A DNA stretch of 64,000 bases from Escherichia coli (GTDB taxonomy: Bacteria > Pseudomonadota > Gammaproteobacteria > Enterobacterales > Enterobacteriaceae), in the NCBI RefSeq assembly GCF_022846255.1, contig NZ_AP025682.1. The stretch is one strand, 5' to 3'. The position numbers and the translations under genes are program-made. The notes below the pieces were generated by a model. The model made no database searches and was not told the origin of the DNA. It saw only the letters and a list, made by a program, of their open reading frames with translations. Each line of letters opens with the position of its first letter. Position 1 is the first letter of the stretch. This document shows, one piece after another, positions 54,258 through 64,000 of the stretch.

Positions 54258-54376
54258 AACGCCTCCTGACGCAACAACTTACCCGCACAAAATAGAATTG
54301 TGCTGTACAAACGTCCAGTTTGAAAGAAGTTTCCTGCGAGGCGCTACGCAAAACGATCGTTAATTTTCATTATTTT

Positions 54377-54412
54377 ATCCCACAATATGAGATGGAGTTT
54401 ATATTGTGGGAT
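54377..54412. promoter_or_regulatory. Perfect 12 bp inverted repeat (ATCCCACAATAT-N12-ATATTGTGGGAT): candidate operator for the downstream IclR-family regulator
   Basis: Arms 54377-54388 and 54401-54412 are exact reverse complements; located ~60 bp upstream of the regulator ATG in an AT-rich divergent promoter region. Confidence 0.5.
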
Positions 54413-54473
54413 ATATCACCTTTTCCCCACGTCATTATGTGGAACACTTCAGCAATATCATCAGGAGAAACGT

Positions 54474-55241
54474 ATGGCAGAAACCTCTTCAACCACCGCA
54501 GGCGCACAAACGTTATTACGTGGACTGGCGGTTCTTAATGCTGTTTATAACGGCTGCCATGACCTAAAAAGTATCGGCGAGTTCACCGGCACGACCCGGA
54601 GCACAACCCATCGTTTAGTCACCGTTCTGGTGGAACAACGCTACCTGCGCCATGTCCCAACGCAGGGCTACCAACTGGGTGCCAAACTGATCGAATTTGG
54701 TGCCAGAGCACTGGAAAGCACCTCGCTGTACGAAATTGCCCAGCCCGTTTTGCAACGCCTTGCCCGTTACACCCTGGACACCGTGCATCTGGGGATCGTT
54801 GAAGGCGACGAAGTGCTGTATCTGGAGAAGATCAACAGTCAGCGCGGGCTGGAAATGCGCTCACGCCCAGGCCATCGCATGCCACTGGCAATCACCGGCA
54901 TCGGCAAGGCATTGATCCTCAACCGAACAGAAGAAGAGTGGCGCACGCTGTTTAAGACCTGTGGTGATGAAACAAAACTGGGCACATTTATTCAGAACAT
55001 GCGTCGTTATGCCGCCAGTGGTTTTGCTTTTGATCTGGAAGAGAACGAGCCGACTATCCGTTGCGTTGCAGCGCCGGTTTACAACGCCCGGGATGAAATT
55101 GTGGCGGCTATTTCTGTCGCCAGTACCACCACGTATATGTCGCTGGCGCGTCTGGAAGAACTGGCACCTTACGTCAAATCCTGTGCAGAAGAGATATCCG
55201 CTGAACTGGGCTGGGGTAAGCACGTCCGCAAAGATAAATAA
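54474..55241 (+). CDS. IclR-family transcriptional regulator (KdgR-like)
   Basis: Start taken at ATG 54474 (RBS AGGAG 8 bp upstream): MAETSSTTAGAQTLLRGLAVLNAVYNGCHDLKSIGEFTGTTRSTTHRLVTVL...; N-terminal wHTH plus C-terminal effector domain; ~255 aa. Confidence 0.8.
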   Translation: MAETSSTTAGAQTLLRGLAVLNAVYNGCHDLKSIGEFTGTTRSTTHRLVTVLVEQRYLRHVPTQGYQLGAKLIEFGARALESTSLYEIAQPVLQRLARYTLDTVHLGIVEGDEVLYLEKINSQRGLEMRSRPGHRMPLAITGIGKALILNRTEEEWRTLFKTCGDETKLGTFIQNMRRYAASGFAFDLEENEPTIRCVAAPVYNARDEIVAAISVASTTTYMSLARLEELAPYVKSCAEEISAELGWGKHVRKDK

Positions 55242-55264
55242 ACCATGATTAAAGGAAACGACTA

Positions 55265-56269
55265 ATGCCGGGAGCACCCTCATTTATTGCCCTGGACTGG
55301 GGAACGTCATCGCTTCGGGCATGGCGTTTTGGCGAATCACCAAATCCACAAGAAAAACGTGAATTCCCCTGGGGGATCATGAAATTACCCTCCCAGGCAG
55401 CAACACGTGAGGACGCTTTCCACGATACGTTTTTACGTGTCTGCGGCGACTGGCTGGCACAAACCCCATGCCCGGTACTGGCTTGCGGCATGCTCGGCAG
55501 TGCGCAAGGGTGGCAATCAGCAGCTTATTTACCTTGCCCGGTCACTCTCGAGGGTCTGGCGAAGCAGTTGACGCCTGTTATCCACCAGCAGCAGACAATG
55601 CTGCATATCATTCCTGGCGTGATTAAAGAAGGTGAAATGCCCGAAGTGATGCGTGGCGAAGAAACACAAATCTTCGGTGCTATCTCGATGGAACCGGCCC
55701 TGCAAAACGCGATCCATCAGGGTATGCCAGTGCTGATAGGCTTACCCGGCACACATGCGAAATGGGCAGTAGTTGAAAACAACACCATTACCGATTTCCG
55801 AACCTTTATGACGGGCGAGTTATTTGATGTTTTATCCCGCCATTCGATTCTCGGTGCCACCATGCATCCTGGAGATGAACCGCACTGGGATGCCTTCACC
55901 CACGGGCTGACAGCAGCACAAGAGCATCATCAGACCGGATTATTATCGACGCTGTTTTCGACCCGTTCGCGCCTGCTGACCAGTAATCTTACGTCGTCCT
56001 CGCAGGGGGATTACCTTTCCGGATTACTGATAGGCCATGAATTATGTGGTCTGGCATCCAGTTTGCTACGTGATTTACCCGCCACAACACCGATCGCCTT
56101 AATCGGTAGCGCAAATCTGAACAGCCGCTATTCACAAGCATTCAGCCACGTTTTTCCCGACAGACAGATACACGCCATTCCTAATGCCACTGAACAGGGA
56201 TTATGGCGAATCGCCCACGCTGCCGGGTTACTGTCCACCAACGCCAGGGAATGTACCCATGCCATTTAA
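55265..56269 (+). CDS. 2-dehydro-3-deoxygalactonokinase family protein (DgoK paralog)
   Basis: 334 aa; motifs shared with remembered E. coli DgoK: IALDWGTSSLRAW, MRGEETQIFGA, LPGTHAKW, DFRTFMTGELFDVL, DYLSGLLIGHE. Confidence 0.8.
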   Translation: MPGAPSFIALDWGTSSLRAWRFGESPNPQEKREFPWGIMKLPSQAATREDAFHDTFLRVCGDWLAQTPCPVLACGMLGSAQGWQSAAYLPCPVTLEGLAKQLTPVIHQQQTMLHIIPGVIKEGEMPEVMRGEETQIFGAISMEPALQNAIHQGMPVLIGLPGTHAKWAVVENNTITDFRTFMTGELFDVLSRHSILGATMHPGDEPHWDAFTHGLTAAQEHHQTGLLSTLFSTRSRLLTSNLTSSSQGDYLSGLLIGHELCGLASSLLRDLPATTPIALIGSANLNSRYSQAFSHVFPDRQIHAIPNATEQGLWRIAHAAGLLSTNARECTHAI

Positions 56270-56888
56270 TACGCTTTTGCAAAAAACCGGGTTAGTCGCC
56301 ATTTTACGCGGCGTGAAACCGGATGAGATTGTCGCCATCGGTGAAAAACTGTACGCCGCCGGATTCCGCCTGATTGAGATTCCTATGAACTCGCCGGAGG
56401 CGTTGCAAAGTATCAGTATACTGCGCGACGCCCTGCCTAAGGACTGCCTGGTCGGAGCCGGAACTGTGCTTTCGGTAGAGCAGGTGGTTGCGGTTAAAGA
56501 GGCTGGGGGCCAGATTATCGTGATGCCGCATTGCGATACTGCGGTGATCCGTCGCGCCCGTGCGCTGGGTATGTATTGTGCGCCTGGCGTCGCCACGCCC
56601 ACCGAAGCCTTTGCTGCCATTGAACATGGTGCTAATGCCATCAAGCTGTTCCCGGCTGAACAAATTACGCCAGAAGTTACCAAAGCCTGGCGTGCGGTTA
56701 TTCCACAATCCGTTCCGATGTTACCGGTTGGCGGTATCACACCGGAAACCATGGCGCGTTATCTGAGCCACGGCGCAAACGGCTTTGGCCTCGGTTCTGC
56801 GCTATATCGCCCCGGCATGACGCCAGAGCAAGTCTATGAAAATGCAGTACTGTTTATGAACGCATGGAACAATTTAAATAGCAACTAA
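56259..56888 (+). CDS. 2-dehydro-3-deoxy-6-phosphogalactonate (KDPGal/KDPG) aldolase family protein (DgoA paralog)
   Basis: Start at ATG 56259 overlapping kinase stop (ATGCCATTTAA); MPFNTLLQKTGLVAILRGVKPDEIVAIGEKLYAAGFRLIEIPMNSPEALQS...GAGTVL...; strong similarity to remembered DgoA. Confidence 0.8.
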   Translation: MPFNTLLQKTGLVAILRGVKPDEIVAIGEKLYAAGFRLIEIPMNSPEALQSISILRDALPKDCLVGAGTVLSVEQVVAVKEAGGQIIVMPHCDTAVIRRARALGMYCAPGVATPTEAFAAIEHGANAIKLFPAEQITPEVTKAWRAVIPQSVPMLPVGGITPETMARYLSHGANGFGLGSALYRPGMTPEQVYENAVLFMNAWNNLNSN

Positions 56889-56912
56889 CTGATAAATAAG
56901 GATATAAAAGCA

Positions 56913-57887
56913 ATGATAAAACATCTTACCTTACCGAAAAAAATGGCTGCAATGGTACTTCTTGCAGGCGCTGCCCTCAGCATTGCGCCTGTACAGGCAG
57001 CCTCCTGGCCAACCAAACAGATCGAGTTAGTCGTTCCCTACGCTGCCGGAGGCGGTACGGATCTGGTTGCCCGTGCCTTTGCTGATGCCGCCAAAAACCA
57101 TTTACCCGTCAGCATCGGGGTTATCAATAAACCTGGCGGAGGCGGTGCTATCGGCCTGAGTGAAATCGCCGCTGCCCGCCCTAACGGTTACAAAATTGGT
57201 TTAGGCACGGTTGAACTGACCACCCTTCCCAGCCTCGGAATGGTGCGTTTTAAAACCAGCGACTTTAAACCCATTGCCCGTCTGAATGCGGATCCGGCTG
57301 CTATCACAGTCCGTGCCGATGCGCCGTGGAATAGCTATGAAGAATTTATGGCTTACTCCAAAGCGAATCCCGGAAAAGTACGCATTGGTAACTCAGGCAC
57401 CGGAGCTATCTGGCATCTGGCGGCAGCTGCACTGGAAGACAAAACGGGCACAAAGTTTTCTCATGTCCCGTATGACGGCGCAGCCCCTGCCATTACAGGC
57501 CTGTTAGGCGGGCACATTGAAGCGGTTTCCGTAAGCCCAGGAGAAGTTATCAACCATGTGAATGGCGGCAAGCTGAAGACACTGGTAGTGATGGCGGATG
57601 AGCGAATGAAAACCATGCCTGACGTCCCGACGTTAAAAGAGAAAGGCGTTGATCTCTCCATCGGCACCTGGCGCGGCCTGATTGTGTCGCAAAAAACGCC
57701 GCAGGATGTGGTGGATGTTCTGGCAAAGGCAGCAAAAGAGACGGCTGAAGAGCCTGCATTCCAGGATGCACTGCAAAAGTTGAATCTCAACTATGCATGG
57801 CTTGACGCTGCCAGCTTCCAGACCCAAATCAGCGAACAGGAAAAGTACTTTGACGAGTTGCTGACTCGCCTGGGCCTGAAAAAATAA
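56913..57887 (+). CDS. tripartite tricarboxylate transporter (TTT) periplasmic substrate-binding protein, TctC/Bug family
   Basis: 324 aa with signal peptide ...AALSIAPVQAASWP; Bug-family motifs VPYAAGGGTD, KPGGGGAIG. Confidence 0.8.
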   Translation: MIKHLTLPKKMAAMVLLAGAALSIAPVQAASWPTKQIELVVPYAAGGGTDLVARAFADAAKNHLPVSIGVINKPGGGGAIGLSEIAAARPNGYKIGLGTVELTTLPSLGMVRFKTSDFKPIARLNADPAAITVRADAPWNSYEEFMAYSKANPGKVRIGNSGTGAIWHLAAAALEDKTGTKFSHVPYDGAAPAITGLLGGHIEAVSVSPGEVINHVNGGKLKTLVVMADERMKTMPDVPTLKEKGVDLSIGTWRGLIVSQKTPQDVVDVLAKAAKETAEEPAFQDALQKLNLNYAWLDAASFQTQISEQEKYFDELLTRLGLKK

Positions 57888-57900
57888 ACCTGAGGTACGG

Positions 57901-58410
57901 TTGATGAACACAAAACAGTCTGTTGCTCAACTCGCCGTACCGCACCGCAAGCGCCTTTCATCAACGATGGTGGTGGCGCTGTTACTTTGTGTGGTTGCTG
58001 GCGCGGTGATGATTAATGCCGCTGATTTTCCAGCAACTGCCATTGAAACGGATCCCGGTGCAAGTGCCTTCCCTACCTTCTATGCCTGTGCCCTGATTGT
58101 GCTCGCTGTCTTGCTGGTGATACGCGATCTTTTGCAGGCAAAACCAGCCTCTTGCGCCAACGCACAGGAAAAACCGGCATTCAGGAAAACAGCAACAGGA
58201 ATTGCGGCAACCGCGTTTTATATTGTGGCGATGAGCTACTGCGGTTATCTCATTACTACTCCTGTTTTCCTCATCGTCATTATGACGTTGATGGGCTACA
58301 GGCGATGGGTACTCACACCGGGTATTGCGCTGCTGTTAACGGCAATCCTCTGGTTGCTGTTTGTCGAAGCGTTACAGGTGCCATTGCCTGTCGGCACATT
58401 TTTCGAATAA
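57901..58410 (+). CDS. TTT small membrane subunit (TctB-like)
   Basis: 169 aa, 4 predicted TM helices, positioned between TctC-like and TctA-like genes. Confidence 0.7.
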   Translation: MMNTKQSVAQLAVPHRKRLSSTMVVALLLCVVAGAVMINAADFPATAIETDPGASAFPTFYACALIVLAVLLVIRDLLQAKPASCANAQEKPAFRKTATGIAATAFYIVAMSYCGYLITTPVFLIVIMTLMGYRRWVLTPGIALLLTAILWLLFVEALQVPLPVGTFFE

Positions 58411-58422
58411 CAGGGGCCAGCA

Positions 58423-59913
58423 ATGTTTGAAAGTGAACTTTTAACTCAGGGTTTTTCGACATTACTCAATAATCCTCAGGCGCTGCTGTTTGCCACTTTT
58501 GGGGTGATGCTGGGTATTGTGATTGGCGCTTTGCCTGGTCTGACAGCGACCATGGGTGTGGCGATTTTGCTGCCTTTCACCTACGGCATGGAGCCTGTTT
58601 CTGGATTGTTGATGATTTGCGGCGTCTTTTTTGGTGGCGTCTACGGTGGTTCTATCACCGCAATTTTGCTCAAAATTCCCGGAACGCCTGCCGCCGCAGC
58701 CACCGCTATTGATGGTTATGAGCTGACGAAACAGGGAAAAGCAGGGCTGGCATTGAGTGCCGCCACGTTCTCTTCCTTTAGTGGCGGAACGCTCAGCATT
58801 ATCGTGCTGATGTTTCTCTCTCCGGTACTTGCCAGTTGGGCGCTGAAATTTAGTGCCTCGGAGTCCTTCGCCCTGGCAACCTTCGGACTGAGCATTATTG
58901 CCAGTATTTCCGGTGAGTCGCTGATTAAGGGGCTGATTGCCGGGGTTGGCGGATTGCTGATCGCAACGATAGGCCTTGATCCAATGGGCGGTTTTCCACG
59001 GTTTACAGGTGGATTTGTGGAGCTGATGAATGTGCCATTTATCCCGGTGATGATTGGTTTATTTGCTGCTTCAGAAGCATTCCGCTCTATGGAGCAAAAC
59101 CAGCAAATTCGTCGGGGCGCGAAGGTGGCTATCGGCAGTCTGTTACTGCCCTGGCAAACACTACGCCGCATCGCATTAACCATTTTGCGCTCATCAGGAT
59201 TAGGGGTTTTTATCGGCATGATCCCCGGTGCGGGGGCGGATATTGCAGCTTTTGTTGCCTATAACGAAACTCGTCGTTTCAGTAAGACACCAGAAAACTT
59301 TGGTAAGGGTGAAATTAAAGCTGTGGCCTCCTGTGAGGCAGGCGCGAATGGCTGCACCGGTGGCGCATTGTTACCTATGCTGACGCTGGGGATCCCTGGC
59401 GATGCGGTAACCGCCATCATGCTGGGCGCGTTAACGTTACAGGGAATGCAACCAGGCCCGCTGATGTTTACCGACCACGGCGATATGGTTTATACACTGT
59501 TTGTCGGCATGATCTTTTGTTACTTCATGCTGCTAGTTCTTGGACTGCTCTCTTTGAAAGTCATCGGTAACGTGGTGAAGATCCCCGGCAATATTCTCAC
59601 ACCGATGATCCTCGCACTTTGTGTGGTCGGGACTTATGCGTTGAACAATAGCCTTTTTGATGTTGGCATTATGCTGATTGCAGGCGTGGTGGGCTATTTC
59701 ATGCAGAAAGGAGGATATCCGGCATCACCCGTAGTGCTGGCATTGATTATGGGGCCAATGGCGGAAAGTAATTTTCGCCGTGCGCTGTCGCTTTCTGGTG
59801 GGTCACTCGACTTTCTGTATACCCGACCGATCACTCTGGCATTGCTAACTCTGGCAGCCTTTACGCTACTGACGCCAATAATCCGCAAAATAATGCGTTT
59901 ACGGCGTCAGTAA
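58423..59913 (+). CDS. TTT large permease subunit (TctA-like)
   Basis: 496 aa polytopic membrane protein with duplicated-domain architecture typical of TctA. Confidence 0.8.
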   Translation: MFESELLTQGFSTLLNNPQALLFATFGVMLGIVIGALPGLTATMGVAILLPFTYGMEPVSGLLMICGVFFGGVYGGSITAILLKIPGTPAAAATAIDGYELTKQGKAGLALSAATFSSFSGGTLSIIVLMFLSPVLASWALKFSASESFALATFGLSIIASISGESLIKGLIAGVGGLLIATIGLDPMGGFPRFTGGFVELMNVPFIPVMIGLFAASEAFRSMEQNQQIRRGAKVAIGSLLLPWQTLRRIALTILRSSGLGVFIGMIPGAGADIAAFVAYNETRRFSKTPENFGKGEIKAVASCEAGANGCTGGALLPMLTLGIPGDAVTAIMLGALTLQGMQPGPLMFTDHGDMVYTLFVGMIFCYFMLLVLGLLSLKVIGNVVKIPGNILTPMILALCVVGTYALNNSLFDVGIMLIAGVVGYFMQKGGYPASPVVLALIMGPMAESNFRRALSLSGGSLDFLYTRPITLALLTLAAFTLLTPIIRKIMRLRRQ

Positions 59914-59920
59914 CTGATAT

Positions 59921-59947
59921 CGCTCCCCGAAGTTGGGGAGCGTTTTT
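59921..59947 (+). terminator. Rho-independent terminator after the tctA-like gene
   Basis: Hairpin GCTCCCCGAAGTTGGGGAGC followed by GTTTTTTTATTT; lies in the 34 bp gap before the convergent udp stop. Confidence 0.6.
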
Positions 59948-60712
59948 TTATTTCAGCAGACGACGCGCCGCTTCCACCACGATTTTCACCGCATGGCTTT
60001 CGGTTTGTTTCATCGTCTCAGCATTCGGGATCTCTTGCTGGGTGCGGTTAACGATAACCCCCGCTACCATACCGGCACGCAGGCCCTGACTTGCACACAT
60101 GGTCAGCAGGGTTGCAGATTCCATTTCATAGTTCATTACGCCCATCGCCTGCCACTCTTCCATAGAACCTTTAAAGTGACGAACTACGCGACCAGAGTAA
60201 GTATCGTAACGTTCCTGACCAGGGTAGAAGGTATCAGAAGAAGCTGTCACGCCAACGTGAGTCGTCGCGCCAATGGATTTCGCAGCTTCAACCAGCGCAG
60301 TCGTACATTCGAAATCAGCGACAGCCGGGAATTCCAGCGGTGCGAAGTGCAGGCTCGCACCATCCAGACGAACAGACGCCGTGGTAACCAGGACATCGCC
60401 AACATTAATATGCGGCTGAATAGCGCCCGTTGTGCCGATACGCAGGAAGGTGCGAATGCCCAGCTGTGCCAGCTCTTCAACAGCAATAGAGGTAGACGGG
60501 CCGCCGATACCGGTAGAGCAGACGATAACAGGTTTACCATCCAGCTCTGCACGCCAGGTGGTGAATTCGCGATGAGATGCCAGCTTAACCGGCTTATCCA
60601 TCAGCGCGGCGATCTTTTCCACACGATCCGGGTCGCCAGGGACGATGGCAAGCGTAGCCCCTTGTAAATCGTTTTTAGTGAGGCCGAGATGAAAAACATC
60701 AGACTTGGACAT
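59948..60712 (-). CDS. udp: uridine phosphorylase
   Basis: Start taken at [44 protein letters not shown]; PNP/UDP family. Confidence 0.95.
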
Positions 60713-62039: not shown

Positions 62040-62708
62040 ATGACGCAATCCATTTTTCAGGCTCAACCCTTTGAATTACCTTTTGATCCGCGCACAACTG
62101 CACTGGTCATGATCGACATGCAGCGTGACTTTGTCGAAGCAGGGGGCTTCGGTGAGGCACTGGGCAATGATGTTTCACTGGTACGCACGGCTATCGCACC
62201 ATGTACAGAGGTGCTGGCAGCCGCACGTCAAAAAGGAATTATGGTTATTCATACTCGTGAAGGCCATCGTGCAGACTTAAGCGACTGCCCGCCAGCCAAA
62301 CTGACGCGCGGCGGAAAAACCTTTATTGGTGAACCAGGACCGATGGGACGCATTCTGGTCAGAGGTGAAGCAGGTCATGACATCATTCCTGAACTGTACC
62401 CGGTGGCAGGCGAACCGGTGATTGATAAGCCTGGCAAAGGCGCGTTTTATCAAACCGACTTACATCTGATTTTGCAAAACCACGGTATCAAGACGCTGAT
62501 AGTTTGTGGTGTTACAACCGAAGTTTGCGTAACCACCACCGTGCGCGAAGCAAATGATCGTGGCTATGAATGCATTATCCCGGAAGATTGTGTCGGCTCC
62601 TATTTCCCGGAATTCCAGAAATACGCCCTCGAGATGATCAAAGCACAAGGTGCCATTTTCGGTTGGGTTACTGATTCCAAAGCCATTATTGCAGGCCTGG
62701 AAGGCTAA
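62040..62708 (+). CDS. isochorismatase-family cysteine hydrolase (RutB-like amidohydrolase)
   Basis: 222 aa; RBS ACAGGAGA; catalytic-triad contexts MIDMQRDF (Asp), DKPGKGAFYQT (Lys), GVTTEVCVTTT (Cys); resembles remembered RutB ureidoacrylate amidohydrolase. Confidence 0.8.
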   Translation: MTQSIFQAQPFELPFDPRTTALVMIDMQRDFVEAGGFGEALGNDVSLVRTAIAPCTEVLAAARQKGIMVIHTREGHRADLSDCPPAKLTRGGKTFIGEPGPMGRILVRGEAGHDIIPELYPVAGEPVIDKPGKGAFYQTDLHLILQNHGIKTLIVCGVTTEVCVTTTVREANDRGYECIIPEDCVGSYFPEFQKYALEMIKAQGAIFGWVTDSKAIIAGLEG

Positions 62709-62713
62709 CACCG

Positions 62714-63574
62714 ATGGTACAGGTTACGCTTTGCGCATCGTCGTTGGGATATCTTTTCCCGCAGAATGAAACGCAAGATTTACGTCTACATAGCGCTTTT
62801 AAACATGCGGTAAATCTGTATTCAGACGCGGGAACATTCATCACTCTGTTGTGTGCGCAAACGTATCTGAATCTCCCTGATGCAGCCAGAGTCTGGCTAC
62901 CTGAATGTTGGGACTGGCGAAGAGAGATTGCCCATTCAGATCCCATTCAGTTAACCCCAGGCTTACTGCGGACACCTCGATTTTGTGTGGCGCTCGAAAA
63001 CGCAACGCTCTGGCAGTCGCCATTTGTGGGGGGAATGCTGACACTTGAGGCATTCCCTTTGGTTTTCCAGCACTACCCAACGATGGCATCGCAACGGCTT
63101 TTATTTTGTCTGGAACATAACGTTCAAAGCACATTGCACCTGCCGGATAGTCTCACGCACCAGGGATTAGCGATTATGGAGCATCCAGATGCGCTGGAAC
63201 GCCAGGTGCCACAACTGATCGGCTTTGGTAAAGGCTTAACGCCCGATGGAGATGACTATTTGTTGGGCTATCTGGCAGCACTCTGGTTATGGCAACTCCC
63301 TGCACCACTTGCCGATCATCAATACCGGTTGCAGCAGGTAATTGATCAACATGCGCACAACACCACGGATATCAGTCGTCATTATCTGGAGCGTGCGCTT
63401 CAGGGACATTTTTCAGAACCGATTTGCCAGTTACTCGCACAACTGGTTGGGAGTGCATCGGCAATGACAATCGCATCCTGTGCAGAACAGGTCATGCAAT
63501 TTGGCGCAACGTCAGGAGTAGATTGCCTTGCAGGAATGCTGCATGGCTTTCGAACCCTGAACACCATGAATTGA
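62714..63574 (+). CDS. DUF2877-like protein (AllH/YlbF/YahE-type partner of FdrA-like proteins)
   Basis: 286 aa starting 6 bp after the hydrolase stop (translationally coupled); motif GKGLTPDGDDYLLGYL; family assignment from size and position before an FdrA-like gene. Confidence 0.55.
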   Translation: MVQVTLCASSLGYLFPQNETQDLRLHSAFKHAVNLYSDAGTFITLLCAQTYLNLPDAARVWLPECWDWRREIAHSDPIQLTPGLLRTPRFCVALENATLWQSPFVGGMLTLEAFPLVFQHYPTMASQRLLFCLEHNVQSTLHLPDSLTHQGLAIMEHPDALERQVPQLIGFGKGLTPDGDDYLLGYLAALWLWQLPAPLADHQYRLQQVIDQHAHNTTDISRHYLERALQGHFSEPICQLLAQLVGSASAMTIASCAEQVMQFGATSGVDCLAGMLHGFRTLNTMN

Positions 63575-63668
63575 TTTCAACCTTTTCTCCCGTAGCCCGT
63601 TTATGGGGCTACACGGGGATGCTTTGCCCGAATTTTGCTATCGGGCGGAATGAAACAGGCGTAACAGC

Positions 63669-64000
63669 ATGAAAGTTAAATATAAAGTTTTCAGTAATCT
63701 TTATCAGGACTCAGTTTCTCTGATGCAGATTTCCGCGCAAATCAGCAAGTTGCCCGGTATTCAACAGGCCTCGGTCGTCATGGGAACACCCAATAATCTC
63801 GAGCAATTGAGCGATGCGGGTCTGGGTAACGAAATCAACGCCAGTCCCAATGATTTAGTGATTGCAGTCATGGGTGAAGAAGATATTTGCAATGAAGCAC
63901 TGGTACTGGCCCAGCAACGTCTGACCAGCAAACCCGATGATGAAACGGATAGTGGCATTAAAACACCGGAAAAGGTCAGCCTGGAAATGGCACTGGAAGC
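63669..64000 (+). CDS. FdrA/AllF-like protein (CoA-binding/succinyl-CoA-synthetase-like fold), N-terminal 110 aa only; continues beyond window
   Basis: MKVKYKVFSNLYQDSVSLMQISAQISKLPGIQQASVVMGTPNNLEQLSDAGL...SPNDLVIAVMG aligns with remembered FdrA N-terminus (FQDSVSLM...VMMGTP...TPNDI); no stop in window. Confidence 0.8.
   Translation, partial: MKVKYKVFSNLYQDSVSLMQISAQISKLPGIQQASVVMGTPNNLEQLSDAGLGNEINASPNDLVIAVMGEEDICNEALVLAQQRLTSKPDDETDSGIKTPEKVSLEMALE

What the first reader, a model, noticed from the sequence alone, without database searches (positions are those of the whole stretch)
56913..59913. Tripartite tricarboxylate transporter (TctCBA) recruited to a sugar-acid kinase/aldolase operon
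Complete TTT systems are uncommon in Escherichia, and the characterised TctC proteins bind citrate-type ligands, whereas most Bug-family binding proteins have unknown ligands. Pairing a TTT system with a keto-deoxy-acid kinase and aldolase suggests a non-tricarboxylate ligand, so the binding protein could be used to identify the operon's substrate.
Basis: inference. Interest (0 to 1): 0.55.

Follow-up and report, generated by a model that had tools for sequence, protein, structure and literature searches.

The report
Sugar-acid uptake operon islet in E. coli
This is a real, intact six-gene accessory operon, carried by about a quarter of E. coli strains, that couples a binding-protein-dependent TTT transporter to a keto-deoxy-galactonate kinase and aldolase; it most likely takes up D-galactonate or a close derivative rather than citrate, as was already predicted for homologous gene clusters, so it is sound but fairly ordinary.

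Summary
tctC (56913-57887), tctB (57904-58410) and tctA (58423-59913) are full-length TTT genes. They lie directly downstream of an IclR regulator, a DgoK-type kinase and a KDPGal-type aldolase.

The six genes form a 5.6-kb islet (54354-59947) that replaces 45 bp between rmuC and udp in K-12. It is not rare: 1452 of 5426 complete E. coli genomes carry it, including BL21 and ST131. It was noted in 2012 as an "islet of unknown function".

The same block occurs in Klebsiella, Buttiauxella, Brenneria, Enterobacter, Azospirillum and Rhodoferax. All six genes are under purifying selection.

The binding protein belongs to a clade always linked to a keto-deoxy-acid kinase and aldolase. Its sister clade, which includes PDB 4X9T, sits in galactarate/hexuronate clusters.

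The best reading is SBP-dependent uptake of a galacto-configured C6 sugar acid: D-galactonate (about 0.5) or 2-keto-3-deoxygalactonate (about 0.3). Leyn et al. 2017 predicted D-galactonate uptake for an IclR-dgoK-TTT locus. No dehydratase is ever present in the block.

Its premises on rarity and citrate-only ligands are outdated. It is a new member of a known kind, of modest interest.

The parts
54354..59947 (.). Accessory islet (about 5.6 kb) between rmuC and udp. It replaces a 45-bp K-12 segment that contains the udp terminator hairpin.
   Evidence: Megablast collinearity with islet-free genomes stops at window 54353. Direct comparison with JM109 defines both junctions; the right junction lies on the udp stop codon.
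54376..54413 (.). Candidate operator: a perfect 13-nt inverted repeat, TATCCCACAATAT-N12-ATATTGTGGGATA, 61-98 bp upstream of the regulator's start codon. It contains the conserved box TCCCACAATATGAGA (54378-54392).
   Evidence: Found. The arms are conserved in E. whittamii while the spacer differs. A TCCC-N7-GGGA box lies 39-116 bp upstream of the IclR gene in all 10 enterobacterial copies examined and is rare elsewhere (22 matches in 735 kb scanned, both strands).
54474..55241 (+). IclR-family transcriptional regulator (255 aa). It is probably the autoregulated repressor of the operon ('GalR'-type).
   Evidence: PF09339 plus PF01614, E 1.3e-37. It scores below the cut-off for the KdgR, BhcR and IclR equivalogs. 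The RefSeq start is as in BL21. dN/dS is 0.05 against E. whittamii.
55265..56269 (+). 2-dehydro-3-deoxygalactonokinase paralogue (DgoK-type, 334 aa).
   Evidence: PF05035, E 3.5e-89, full length. It is 35% identical to core E. coli DgoK and 47-49% to Burkholderiales DgoK. PDB relatives are 3r1x and 3t69. dN/dS is 0.15.
56259..56888 (+). 2-dehydro-3-deoxy-6-phosphogalactonate (KDPGal) aldolase paralogue (209 aa). It overlaps the kinase gene by 11 nt.
   Evidence: NF006600 scores 321 bits against a cut-off of 207. It is 46% identical to E. coli DgoA. The equivalents of A11, I12, R14, E37, K126 and V154 are all retained (diagnostic positions from PMC4915726). dN/dS is 0.06.
56913..57887 (+). TctC/Bug-family periplasmic solute-binding protein (324 aa). 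It has a Sec-type signal peptide ending ...APVQA|AS.
   Evidence: PF03401, E 3.5e-55. The closest PDB entry is 4x9t (E 1.6e-99, 51.5% identity, apo), followed by 25hk. Clade signature residues are A44, V52, T163, A165 and D188.
57904..58410 (+). TctB small membrane subunit (168 aa; ATG at 57904, one codon after the TTG listed by the ORF finder).
   Evidence: PF07331, E 1.5e-21. The RefSeq start is as in BL21.
58423..59913 (+). TctA large membrane subunit (permease, 496 aa).
   Evidence: PF01970, E 1.5e-151, profile positions 1-423 of 423. dN/dS is 0.016.
59921..59942 (.). G+C-rich hairpin with a T-run (CGCTCCCCGAAGTTGGGGAGCG TTTTTTT) between the convergent tctA and udp genes. It is the likely operon terminator.
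   Evidence: It is the top-scoring terminator-like site in the region: 9 pairs, 7 of them G-C.

Best explanation
The six genes form one IclR-controlled operon for scavenging a galacto-configured six-carbon sugar acid.

Proposed mechanism:
1. TctC, exported to the periplasm, captures the acid and delivers it to the TctB/TctA secondary transporter.
2. In the cytoplasm the 2-keto-3-deoxy form (KDGal) is phosphorylated at C6 by the islet's DgoK-type kinase.
3. [quoted passage not shown]

I commit to D-galactonate as the transported species. The dehydration step would be supplied by the core-genome DgoD. The IclR protein would bind the conserved TCCC-N7-GGGA box upstream of its own gene and be released by the sugar acid or its keto-deoxy derivative.

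Shown: gene identities, operon-like anatomy, conservation of the block, purifying selection, KDPGal-type aldolase residues, and the clade and context of the binding protein.

Inferred: the ligand, the regulator's effector and operator, and the dependence on DgoD.
For: - Domain assignments and tight gene spacing.
- The identical block IclR-DgoK-DgoA-TctCBA occurs in E. whittamii, Klebsiella indica, Buttiauxella, Brenneria, Enterobacter, Azospirillum, Rhodoferax and a soil MAG. It occurs both at the rmuC-udp site and elsewhere.
- dN/dS is 0.02-0.19 for all six genes.
- The aldolase passes the KDPGal-aldolase model and keeps A11, I12 and V154.
- In alpha- and beta-proteobacterial copies an SMP-30-type lactonase and an SDR follow tctA. 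In Azospirillum the lactonase gene overlaps tctA by 4 nt. This implies entry at the aldonate/lactone level of the De Ley-Doudoroff route, and a dehydratase encoded elsewhere in those genomes too.
- Related IclR-DgoK-DgoA clusters in Burkholderiaceae carry an ABC sugar transporter, an SDR, a lactonase and a mutarotase, and also lack a dehydratase.
- The TctC signature residues are identical across all kinase/aldolase-linked copies. They differ from the sister clade, which sits beside GarD-type dehydratases in aldarate/hexuronate clusters.
- Leyn et al. 2017 predicted D-galactonate uptake for an IclR('GalR')-dgoK-TTT locus.
- E. coli has a core dgoD.
Against: - No ligand has been measured for any member of this TctC clade. 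The nearest structure, 4X9T, is apo and belongs to the sister clade.
- No copy of the block in any of four architectures contains a galactonate dehydratase.
- In Enterobacterales a galactonate cargo would induce the core dgoRKADT operon. That would make the islet's kinase and aldolase redundant, yet they are under purifying selection.
- A Brevibacillus cluster with the same TctC signature has only a PfkB kinase, an aldolase and a 2-hydroxyacid dehydrogenase. That fits direct uptake of a keto-deoxy acid better.
- The promoter scan found no consensus sigma-70 site on the + strand.
Confidence: 0.5

Rival explanations
1. The module is a self-contained salvage system for 2-keto-3-deoxy-D-galactonate (KDGal). 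The TTT system imports KDGal itself, and the islet kinase and aldolase finish the job without any dehydratase. It would be the galacto counterpart of KdgT-KdgK-Eda under KdgR.
For: - A dehydratase is absent from every version of the block examined, across four different architectures.
- The kinase and aldolase are retained under purifying selection in hosts that already have dgoRKADT.
- The regulator is IclR/KdgR-like (128.6 bits to the KdgR model, below the cut-off).
- The Brevibacillus variant has only a kinase, an aldolase and a dehydrogenase.
Against: - A lactonase and an SDR are coupled to tctA in Azospirillum, Rhodoferax and the soil MAG. They act upstream of the dehydratase step.
- Lack of a linked dehydratase is also seen in galactose-type clusters, which must use one. 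So the absence is not diagnostic.
- No known abundant environmental source of free KDGal (my own knowledge).
- The published prediction for the homologous locus is D-galactonate.
Confidence: 0.3
2. The TTT system carries an aldarate or another sugar acid (galactarate, glucarate, a hexuronate) that is not a substrate of the neighbouring kinase and aldolase. The linkage would reflect co-regulation only.
For: - TctC proteins at 55-59% identity sit directly downstream of GarD-type dehydratases, together with KdgD, Udh-like, lactonase and TRAP genes.
- TTT systems have been predicted to take up galactarate/glucarate (PMC5507952; cited in PMC5812351).
Against: - The kinase/aldolase-linked and GarD-linked proteins form separate clades.
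- They differ consistently at ten positions, including 44, 163, 165 and 188 in or beside the ligand loops. Position 44 aligns with the binding contributor Gly20 of Vibrio TTT-C.
- The block is never found with aldarate enzymes.
Confidence: 0.1
3. It is a conventional citrate/tricarboxylate Tct system that merely lies next to a kinase and an aldolase.
For: Only the family name and the Pfam assignment.
Against: - No TctDE-type two-component genes are present; the regulator is IclR.
- The block is conserved with the kinase and aldolase in many genera and at different loci.
- The nearest relatives are in sugar-acid contexts, and none of the best PDB relatives is a citrate binder.
Confidence: 0.03
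4. It is a decaying, non-functional remnant of a horizontally acquired island.
For: It is absent from about 73% of complete E. coli genomes. About 28 genomes carry only part of it.
Against: - All six ORFs are intact and full length against their profiles.
- dN/dS is 0.02-0.19.
- 1452 genomes share >=99% identity.
- The upstream box is conserved.
Confidence: 0.02

Closest known systems
IclR('GalR')-dgoK-TTT locus of Salinivirga fredricksonii HL-109, predicted to take up D-galactonate (Leyn et al. 2017, PMC5507952)
   Same: An IclR regulator, a DgoK kinase and a TTT transporter are clustered. Galactose dehydrogenase and lactonase are absent. It is interpreted as the lower De Ley-Doudoroff pathway fed by a sugar-acid transporter.
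   Different: It is a different organism and class (an alphaproteobacterium from a microbial mat). The prediction is bioinformatic only. I could not compare sequences with it directly. The E. coli copy depends on an unlinked DgoD if galactonate is the cargo.
E. coli core dgoRKADT operon (D-galactonate catabolism)
   Same: It uses the same two chemical steps: KDGal kinase (PF05035) and KDPGal aldolase, with the same diagnostic residues. The end products are the same.
   Different: The islet kinase is only 35% identical and the aldolase 46%. The islet has an IclR regulator rather than the GntR-type DgoR, and a TTT transporter rather than the MFS DgoT. It has no DgoD. The islet kinase is closer to Burkholderiales DgoK (47-49%).
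Salmonella TctCBA citrate transporter (prototype of the TTT family)
   Same: The same three-component architecture: TctC, TctB and TctA in one operon.
   Different: The prototype is controlled by the TctDE two-component system and carries tricarboxylates (established knowledge; PMC5812351). Here the regulator is IclR and the context is sugar-acid catabolism.
Polaromonas TctC homologue, PDB 4X9T (EFI target, apo, ligand unknown)
   Same: It is the closest solved structure (E 1.6e-99, 51.5% identity). Both canonical carboxylate-binding loops are conserved.
   Different: It falls in the sister clade with the GarD-linked orphan binding proteins. It has P44, N163, S165 and A188 instead of A44, T163, A165 and D188.
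Vibrio sp. C42 TTT-C, binding unsaturated alginate oligosaccharides (PDB 25HK, PMC13390454)
   Same: It is a TTT binding protein for an acidic carbohydrate in a catabolic locus ending in a keto-deoxy-acid kinase and aldolase. It shares G48, T49, D50, P128, G210, T252 and R254 equivalents.
   Different: It is 39% identical. Its second ligand loop is remodelled, it has a larger pocket for oligosaccharides, and the KdgK/Eda (gluco) branch lies downstream.

Membership tests
Tripartite tricarboxylate transporter (TTT) system | Periplasmic TctC/Bug-family binding protein with a signal peptide | tested here: met
   PF03401 at 187.9 bits, covering profile positions 1-274 of 274. The N-terminus MIKHLTLPKKMAAMVLLAGAALSIAPVQA|AS was read from the sequence.
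Tripartite tricarboxylate transporter (TTT) system | TctB small and TctA large membrane subunits encoded together with TctC | tested here: met
   PF07331 (77 bits) and PF01970 (505 bits, full length). The gaps between genes are 16 and 12 bp.
Tripartite tricarboxylate transporter (TTT) system | Transport of citrate or other tricarboxylates (prototype function) | not testable with these tools
   Context and clade argue against it, but no binding or uptake data exist.
Tripartite tricarboxylate transporter (TTT) system | TctDE two-component control, as in the Salmonella tct locus | tested here: not met
   No response regulator or histidine kinase lies between rmuC and udp. The only regulator is of the IclR family.
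De Ley-Doudoroff lower pathway (DgoK/DgoA) | 2-dehydro-3-deoxygalactonokinase of the DGOK family | tested here: met
   PF05035 at 298.9 bits, full length. PDB relatives are 3r1x and 3t69.
De Ley-Doudoroff lower pathway (DgoK/DgoA) | KDPGal-specific class I aldolase: Schiff-base Lys, catalytic Glu, and the stereochemistry determinants A11/I12/V154 | tested here: met
   NF006600 scores 321 bits against a cut-off of 207. The alignment to E. coli DgoA shows A11, I12, R14, E37, K126 and V154 conserved. The positions are taken from PMC4915726.
De Ley-Doudoroff lower pathway (DgoK/DgoA) | D-galactonate dehydratase (DgoD) in the same locus | tested here: not met
   No dehydratase-family ORF lies in 54354-59947, nor in any homologous block. 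The core dgoD lies elsewhere in E. coli.
GalR-DgoK-TTT D-galactonate locus (Leyn 2017 prediction) | An IclR-family regulator, dgoK and a TTT transporter clustered, with no galactose dehydrogenase or lactonase | tested here: met
   Gene content of the islet, compared with the description in PMC5507952.
GalR-DgoK-TTT D-galactonate locus (Leyn 2017 prediction) | D-galactonate is the transported ligand and the regulator's effector | not testable with these tools
   It is a prediction in the source paper too. ITC/DSF, uptake assays and EMSA are needed.
GalR-DgoK-TTT D-galactonate locus (Leyn 2017 prediction) | Sequence orthology to the Salinivirga HL-109 proteins | not tested

The most novel reading that the evidence does not exclude
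The TTT system imports 2-keto-3-deoxy-D-galactonate itself. The islet would then be a self-sufficient KDGal salvage module that needs no dehydratase. It would be the first dedicated transporter for this metabolite and the first TTT ligand of the keto-deoxy-acid class. It would imply a cross-feeding niche for KDGal in the gut or urinary tract that favours islet-bearing ExPEC/B2 and B-lineage strains.
Probability: 0.3. Interest if true: 0.5.

Novelty: new member of a known kind. Interest (0 to 1): 0.3.

Why it matters
- The islet is one of the few metabolic differences between K-12 and B, B2 and F lineage E. coli that sits in an otherwise conserved backbone site, and its substrate has never been measured.
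- D-galactonate is a nutrient described in the gut context, so a high-affinity uptake route could bear on colonisation.
- BL21 carries the islet natively. That gives a convenient host for the first biochemical and structural study of a complete sugar-acid TTT system, and for assigning a ligand to a TctC clade found in Alpha-, Beta- and Gammaproteobacteria and in a Brevibacillus (Firmicutes).
- It would not overturn current understanding.

Tried and rejected
- Bouvier et al. 2019 (hexuronate/aldarate regulons with TTT binding proteins) could not be read by DOI or PMC id. The aldarate assignment of the sister clade therefore rests on my own context analysis and on secondary citations.
- Literature searches for experimental work on the E. 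coli islet found little. They returned the 2012 remark 'six ORFs of unknown function' and one RNA-seq table entry for tctA.
- The sigma-70 consensus scan found no + strand promoter upstream of the regulator, so no promoter is claimed.
- I first took the long 13-nt inverted repeat to be the operator. Comparison across genera shows the conserved unit is a shorter TCCC-N7-GGGA box followed by a second half-site.
- Absence of a dehydratase is not proof of KDGal import. Galactose-type IclR-DgoK-DgoA clusters that must use a dehydratase also lack one locally.
- Overall identity does not separate the two TctC clades (59% against 60%). Only signature columns and the tree do.
- Structure prediction and fold search were not run, because a 51.5%-identical crystal structure exists and the tools return no coordinates for pocket analysis.
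- A metagenome-wide context scan was not run, as its cost was disproportionate to the gain.
Full report
**Observation.** TctC (56913-57887) matches PF03401 at E 3.5e-55. TctB (57901/57904-58410) matches PF07331 at E 1.5e-21. TctA (58423-59913) matches PF01970 at E 1.5e-151 over the whole profile.

Three further genes lie directly upstream on the same strand. The first is an IclR-family regulator (54474-55241). The second is a DGOK-family kinase (55265-56269; PF05035, E 3.5e-89). The third is an aldolase (56259-56888) that passes NCBI's KDPGal-aldolase model (NF006600, 321 bits against a cut-off of 207). Spacing between genes is 12-24 bp, with one 11-bp overlap. The only strong terminator-like hairpin follows tctA at 59921-59942. 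The anatomy is that of a single six-gene transcription unit.

**Boundaries and distribution.** Comparison with islet-free E. coli shows collinearity up to window position 54353. In K-12 derivative JM109 the rmuC-udp spacer carries a 45-bp segment with the udp terminator. That segment is replaced here by about 5.6 kb (54354-59947). The right junction falls on the udp stop codon, so Udp ends ...RRLLK rather than ...RRLL.

The islet is present at >=80% coverage and >=99% identity in 1452 of 5426 complete E. coli genomes, including BL21 and ST131. A more sensitive blastn search with tctA found homologues in 1456 genomes, all >=90% identical. This islet is therefore essentially the only TTT system detectable at the DNA level in the species. 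"Uncommon in Escherichia" is an overstatement.

The exact proteins also occur in records from E. fergusonii, Shigella sonnei and strain IAI39. [quoted passage not shown] I found no experimental study of it.

**The block is a conserved unit.** The same order, IclR-DgoK-DgoA-TctC-TctB-TctA, occurs at the same rmuC-udp site in:
- E. whittamii (92-99% amino-acid identity);
- Klebsiella indica;
- Buttiauxella warmboldiae;
- two further enterobacterial contigs.

It occurs at other sites in:
- Brenneria corticis, between PTS/transketolase genes and sspB;
- Enterobacter ludwigii and a related contig, next to a divergent Fe-ADH and a second DGOK paralogue;
- Azospirillum species and Rhodoferax fermentans, followed by an SMP-30-type lactonase and/or an SDR;
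- a soil MAG.

Between E. coli and E. whittamii, all six genes have dN/dS of 0.02-0.19. The transporter is therefore not "merely adjacent" to the enzymes, and the module is maintained by selection.

**The enzymes.** The kinase is only 35% identical to the core E. coli DgoK. It is 47-49% identical to Burkholderiales DgoK, which points to a beta-proteobacterial type.

The aldolase is 46% identical to E. coli DgoA. It keeps R14, E37 and the Schiff-base K126. It also keeps the three positions that distinguish KDPGal from KDPG aldolases: A11, I12 and V154 (alignment; positions from PMC4915726). The enzymology is therefore that of the lower De Ley-Doudoroff pathway: KDGal to KDPGal, then to pyruvate plus glyceraldehyde-3-phosphate.

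**The binding protein.** Its closest solved relative is the apo Polaromonas protein 4X9T (E 1.6e-99, 51.5% identity). Next comes the Vibrio TTT-C protein that binds unsaturated alginate oligosaccharides (25HK, 39% identity), then BugD and BugE.

Homologues at 55-60% identity in Comamonadaceae and Cupriavidus are orphan binding proteins. In the two clusters annotated with Pfam (L005, L013) they lie directly downstream of a GarD/UxaA-family dehydratase. Those clusters also hold a KdgD-like DHDPS protein, a Udh-like dehydrogenase, lactonases and a TRAP transporter. That is the oxidative hexuronate/aldarate pathway.

A neighbour-joining tree separates this GarD-linked clade, which includes 4X9T, from a clade holding every kinase/aldolase-linked TctC. 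Ten alignment columns discriminate the two clades. They include 44 (A/S against Q), 163 (T/S against N), 165 (A against S) and 188 (D against Q/P). Position 44 aligns with Gly20 of Vibrio TTT-C, whose mutation weakens binding. Positions 163 and 165 lie in the second canonical ligand loop.

The signature is identical in proteobacterial copies and in a Brevibacillus protein. The Brevibacillus operon is IclR-TctCBA-PfkB kinase-aldolase-2-hydroxyacid dehydrogenase. The clade therefore looks isofunctional, and its ligand is a relative of, but not the same as, that of the aldarate-context clade.

**Which sugar acid?** Two candidates fit: D-galactonate and its dehydration product KDGal.

For D-galactonate:
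- In Azospirillum, Rhodoferax and the soil MAG a lactonase and an SDR accompany the block. In Azospirillum brasilense the lactonase gene overlaps tctA by 4 nt. These enzymes act upstream of the dehydratase step, so those genomes must supply a dehydratase from elsewhere.
- Related Burkholderiaceae clusters are clearly for galactose. They carry an ABC sugar transporter, a mutarotase, an SDR and a lactonase, and they also lack a local dehydratase.
- E. coli has a core dgoD.
- Leyn et al. 2017 predicted D-galactonate uptake and a galactonate-sensing IclR "GalR" for just such a locus in Salinivirga (PMC5507952).

For KDGal:
- No version of the block has a dehydratase.
- In Enterobacterales a galactonate cargo would switch on dgoRKADT and make the islet's kinase and aldolase redundant, yet they are under purifying selection.
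- The Brevibacillus version is self-contained.

I put D-galactonate at about 0.5, KDGal at 0.3, another sugar acid at 0.1, and citrate-type ligands or decay at 0.05 together.

**Regulation.** Just inside the left junction lies a perfect 13-nt inverted repeat, TATCCCACAATAT-N12-ATATTGTGGGATA (54376-54413). Its arms are conserved in E. whittamii while the spacer differs.

Across genera the conserved element is a TCCC-N7-GGGA box. It lies 39-116 bp upstream of the IclR gene in all ten enterobacterial copies and upstream of a Pararobbsia IclR-DgoK-DgoA cluster. There are only 22 matches in 735 kb scanned on both strands, most of them these sites. This is a plausible operator for an autoregulated repressor, but that is inference. 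No consensus sigma-70 promoter was detected.

**Comparison with known systems and verdict.** As a TTT system the locus meets all the architectural criteria. It lacks the TctDE control of the Salmonella prototype. As a Dgo pathway it meets the kinase and aldolase criteria, but it lacks DgoD, DgoR and DgoT. It best matches the previously predicted GalR-DgoK-TTT galactonate locus.

TTT binding proteins are already known or predicted to handle amino acids, dicarboxylates, aromatic acids, sulfolactate, aldarates and alginate oligosaccharides (PMC5812351, PMC13390454). A non-tricarboxylate ligand would therefore not surprise a specialist.

It is nonetheless a new, uncharacterised member of a known kind, not a new kind of system.

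Noticed in passing
window 59945-59950 (3' end of udp, - strand): The islet's right junction falls on the udp stop codon. Udp here ends ...RRLLK* (one residue longer) against ...RRLL* in K-12. The K-12 udp terminator hairpin is replaced by the islet's own hairpin.
   Followed up: yes
window 62040-64000: A cysteine hydrolase (isochorismatase-like), a DUF2877 protein and the start of fdrA follow ysgA. In Klebsiella indica and Buttiauxella, metE follows soon after ysgA, separated by at most one short intervening gene. This looks like the edge of a second accessory island, probably the 16-kb tkt1 island described in APEC O1. It is also annotated in BL21.
   Followed up: partly
L041 4078-6257 and L037 1851-4102: In Enterobacter ludwigii and a related contig, the six-gene block is flanked by a divergently transcribed Fe-dependent alcohol dehydrogenase, a second DGOK-family kinase paralogue and a second IclR gene. 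Their role is unexplained.
   Followed up: no
L042 8089-14680 (Brevibacillus sp.): A Firmicute operon, IclR-TctC-TctB-TctA-PfkB kinase-aldolase-2-hydroxyacid dehydrogenase. Its TctC is 62% identical to the E. coli protein and carries the same signature residues. It appears to be an independent assembly of the same logic with a non-homologous kinase.
   Followed up: partly
L005 445-11990; L013 1-13055: Comamonadaceae clusters hold two or three orphan TctC genes around a GarD-type dehydratase, a KdgD-like protein, a Udh-like protein, lactonases and a TRAP transporter. PDB 4X9T falls in this clade, which suggests an aldarate or hexuronate-derived ligand for that unliganded structure.
   Followed up: partly
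L003, L031, L035, L036 against the window (identity table): Divergence inside the block is very uneven. TctA is 86-91% and TctC 79-87% identical between genera, similar to the flanking core genes. The kinase and TctB are only 48-60% identical.
   Followed up: no
L043 15732-18888 (Azospirillum thermophilum plasmid): kduD, kduI, kdgT and a cupin gene lie about 4 kb downstream of the block. This places the module in a wider uronate/keto-deoxy-acid neighbourhood in that genome.
   Followed up: no
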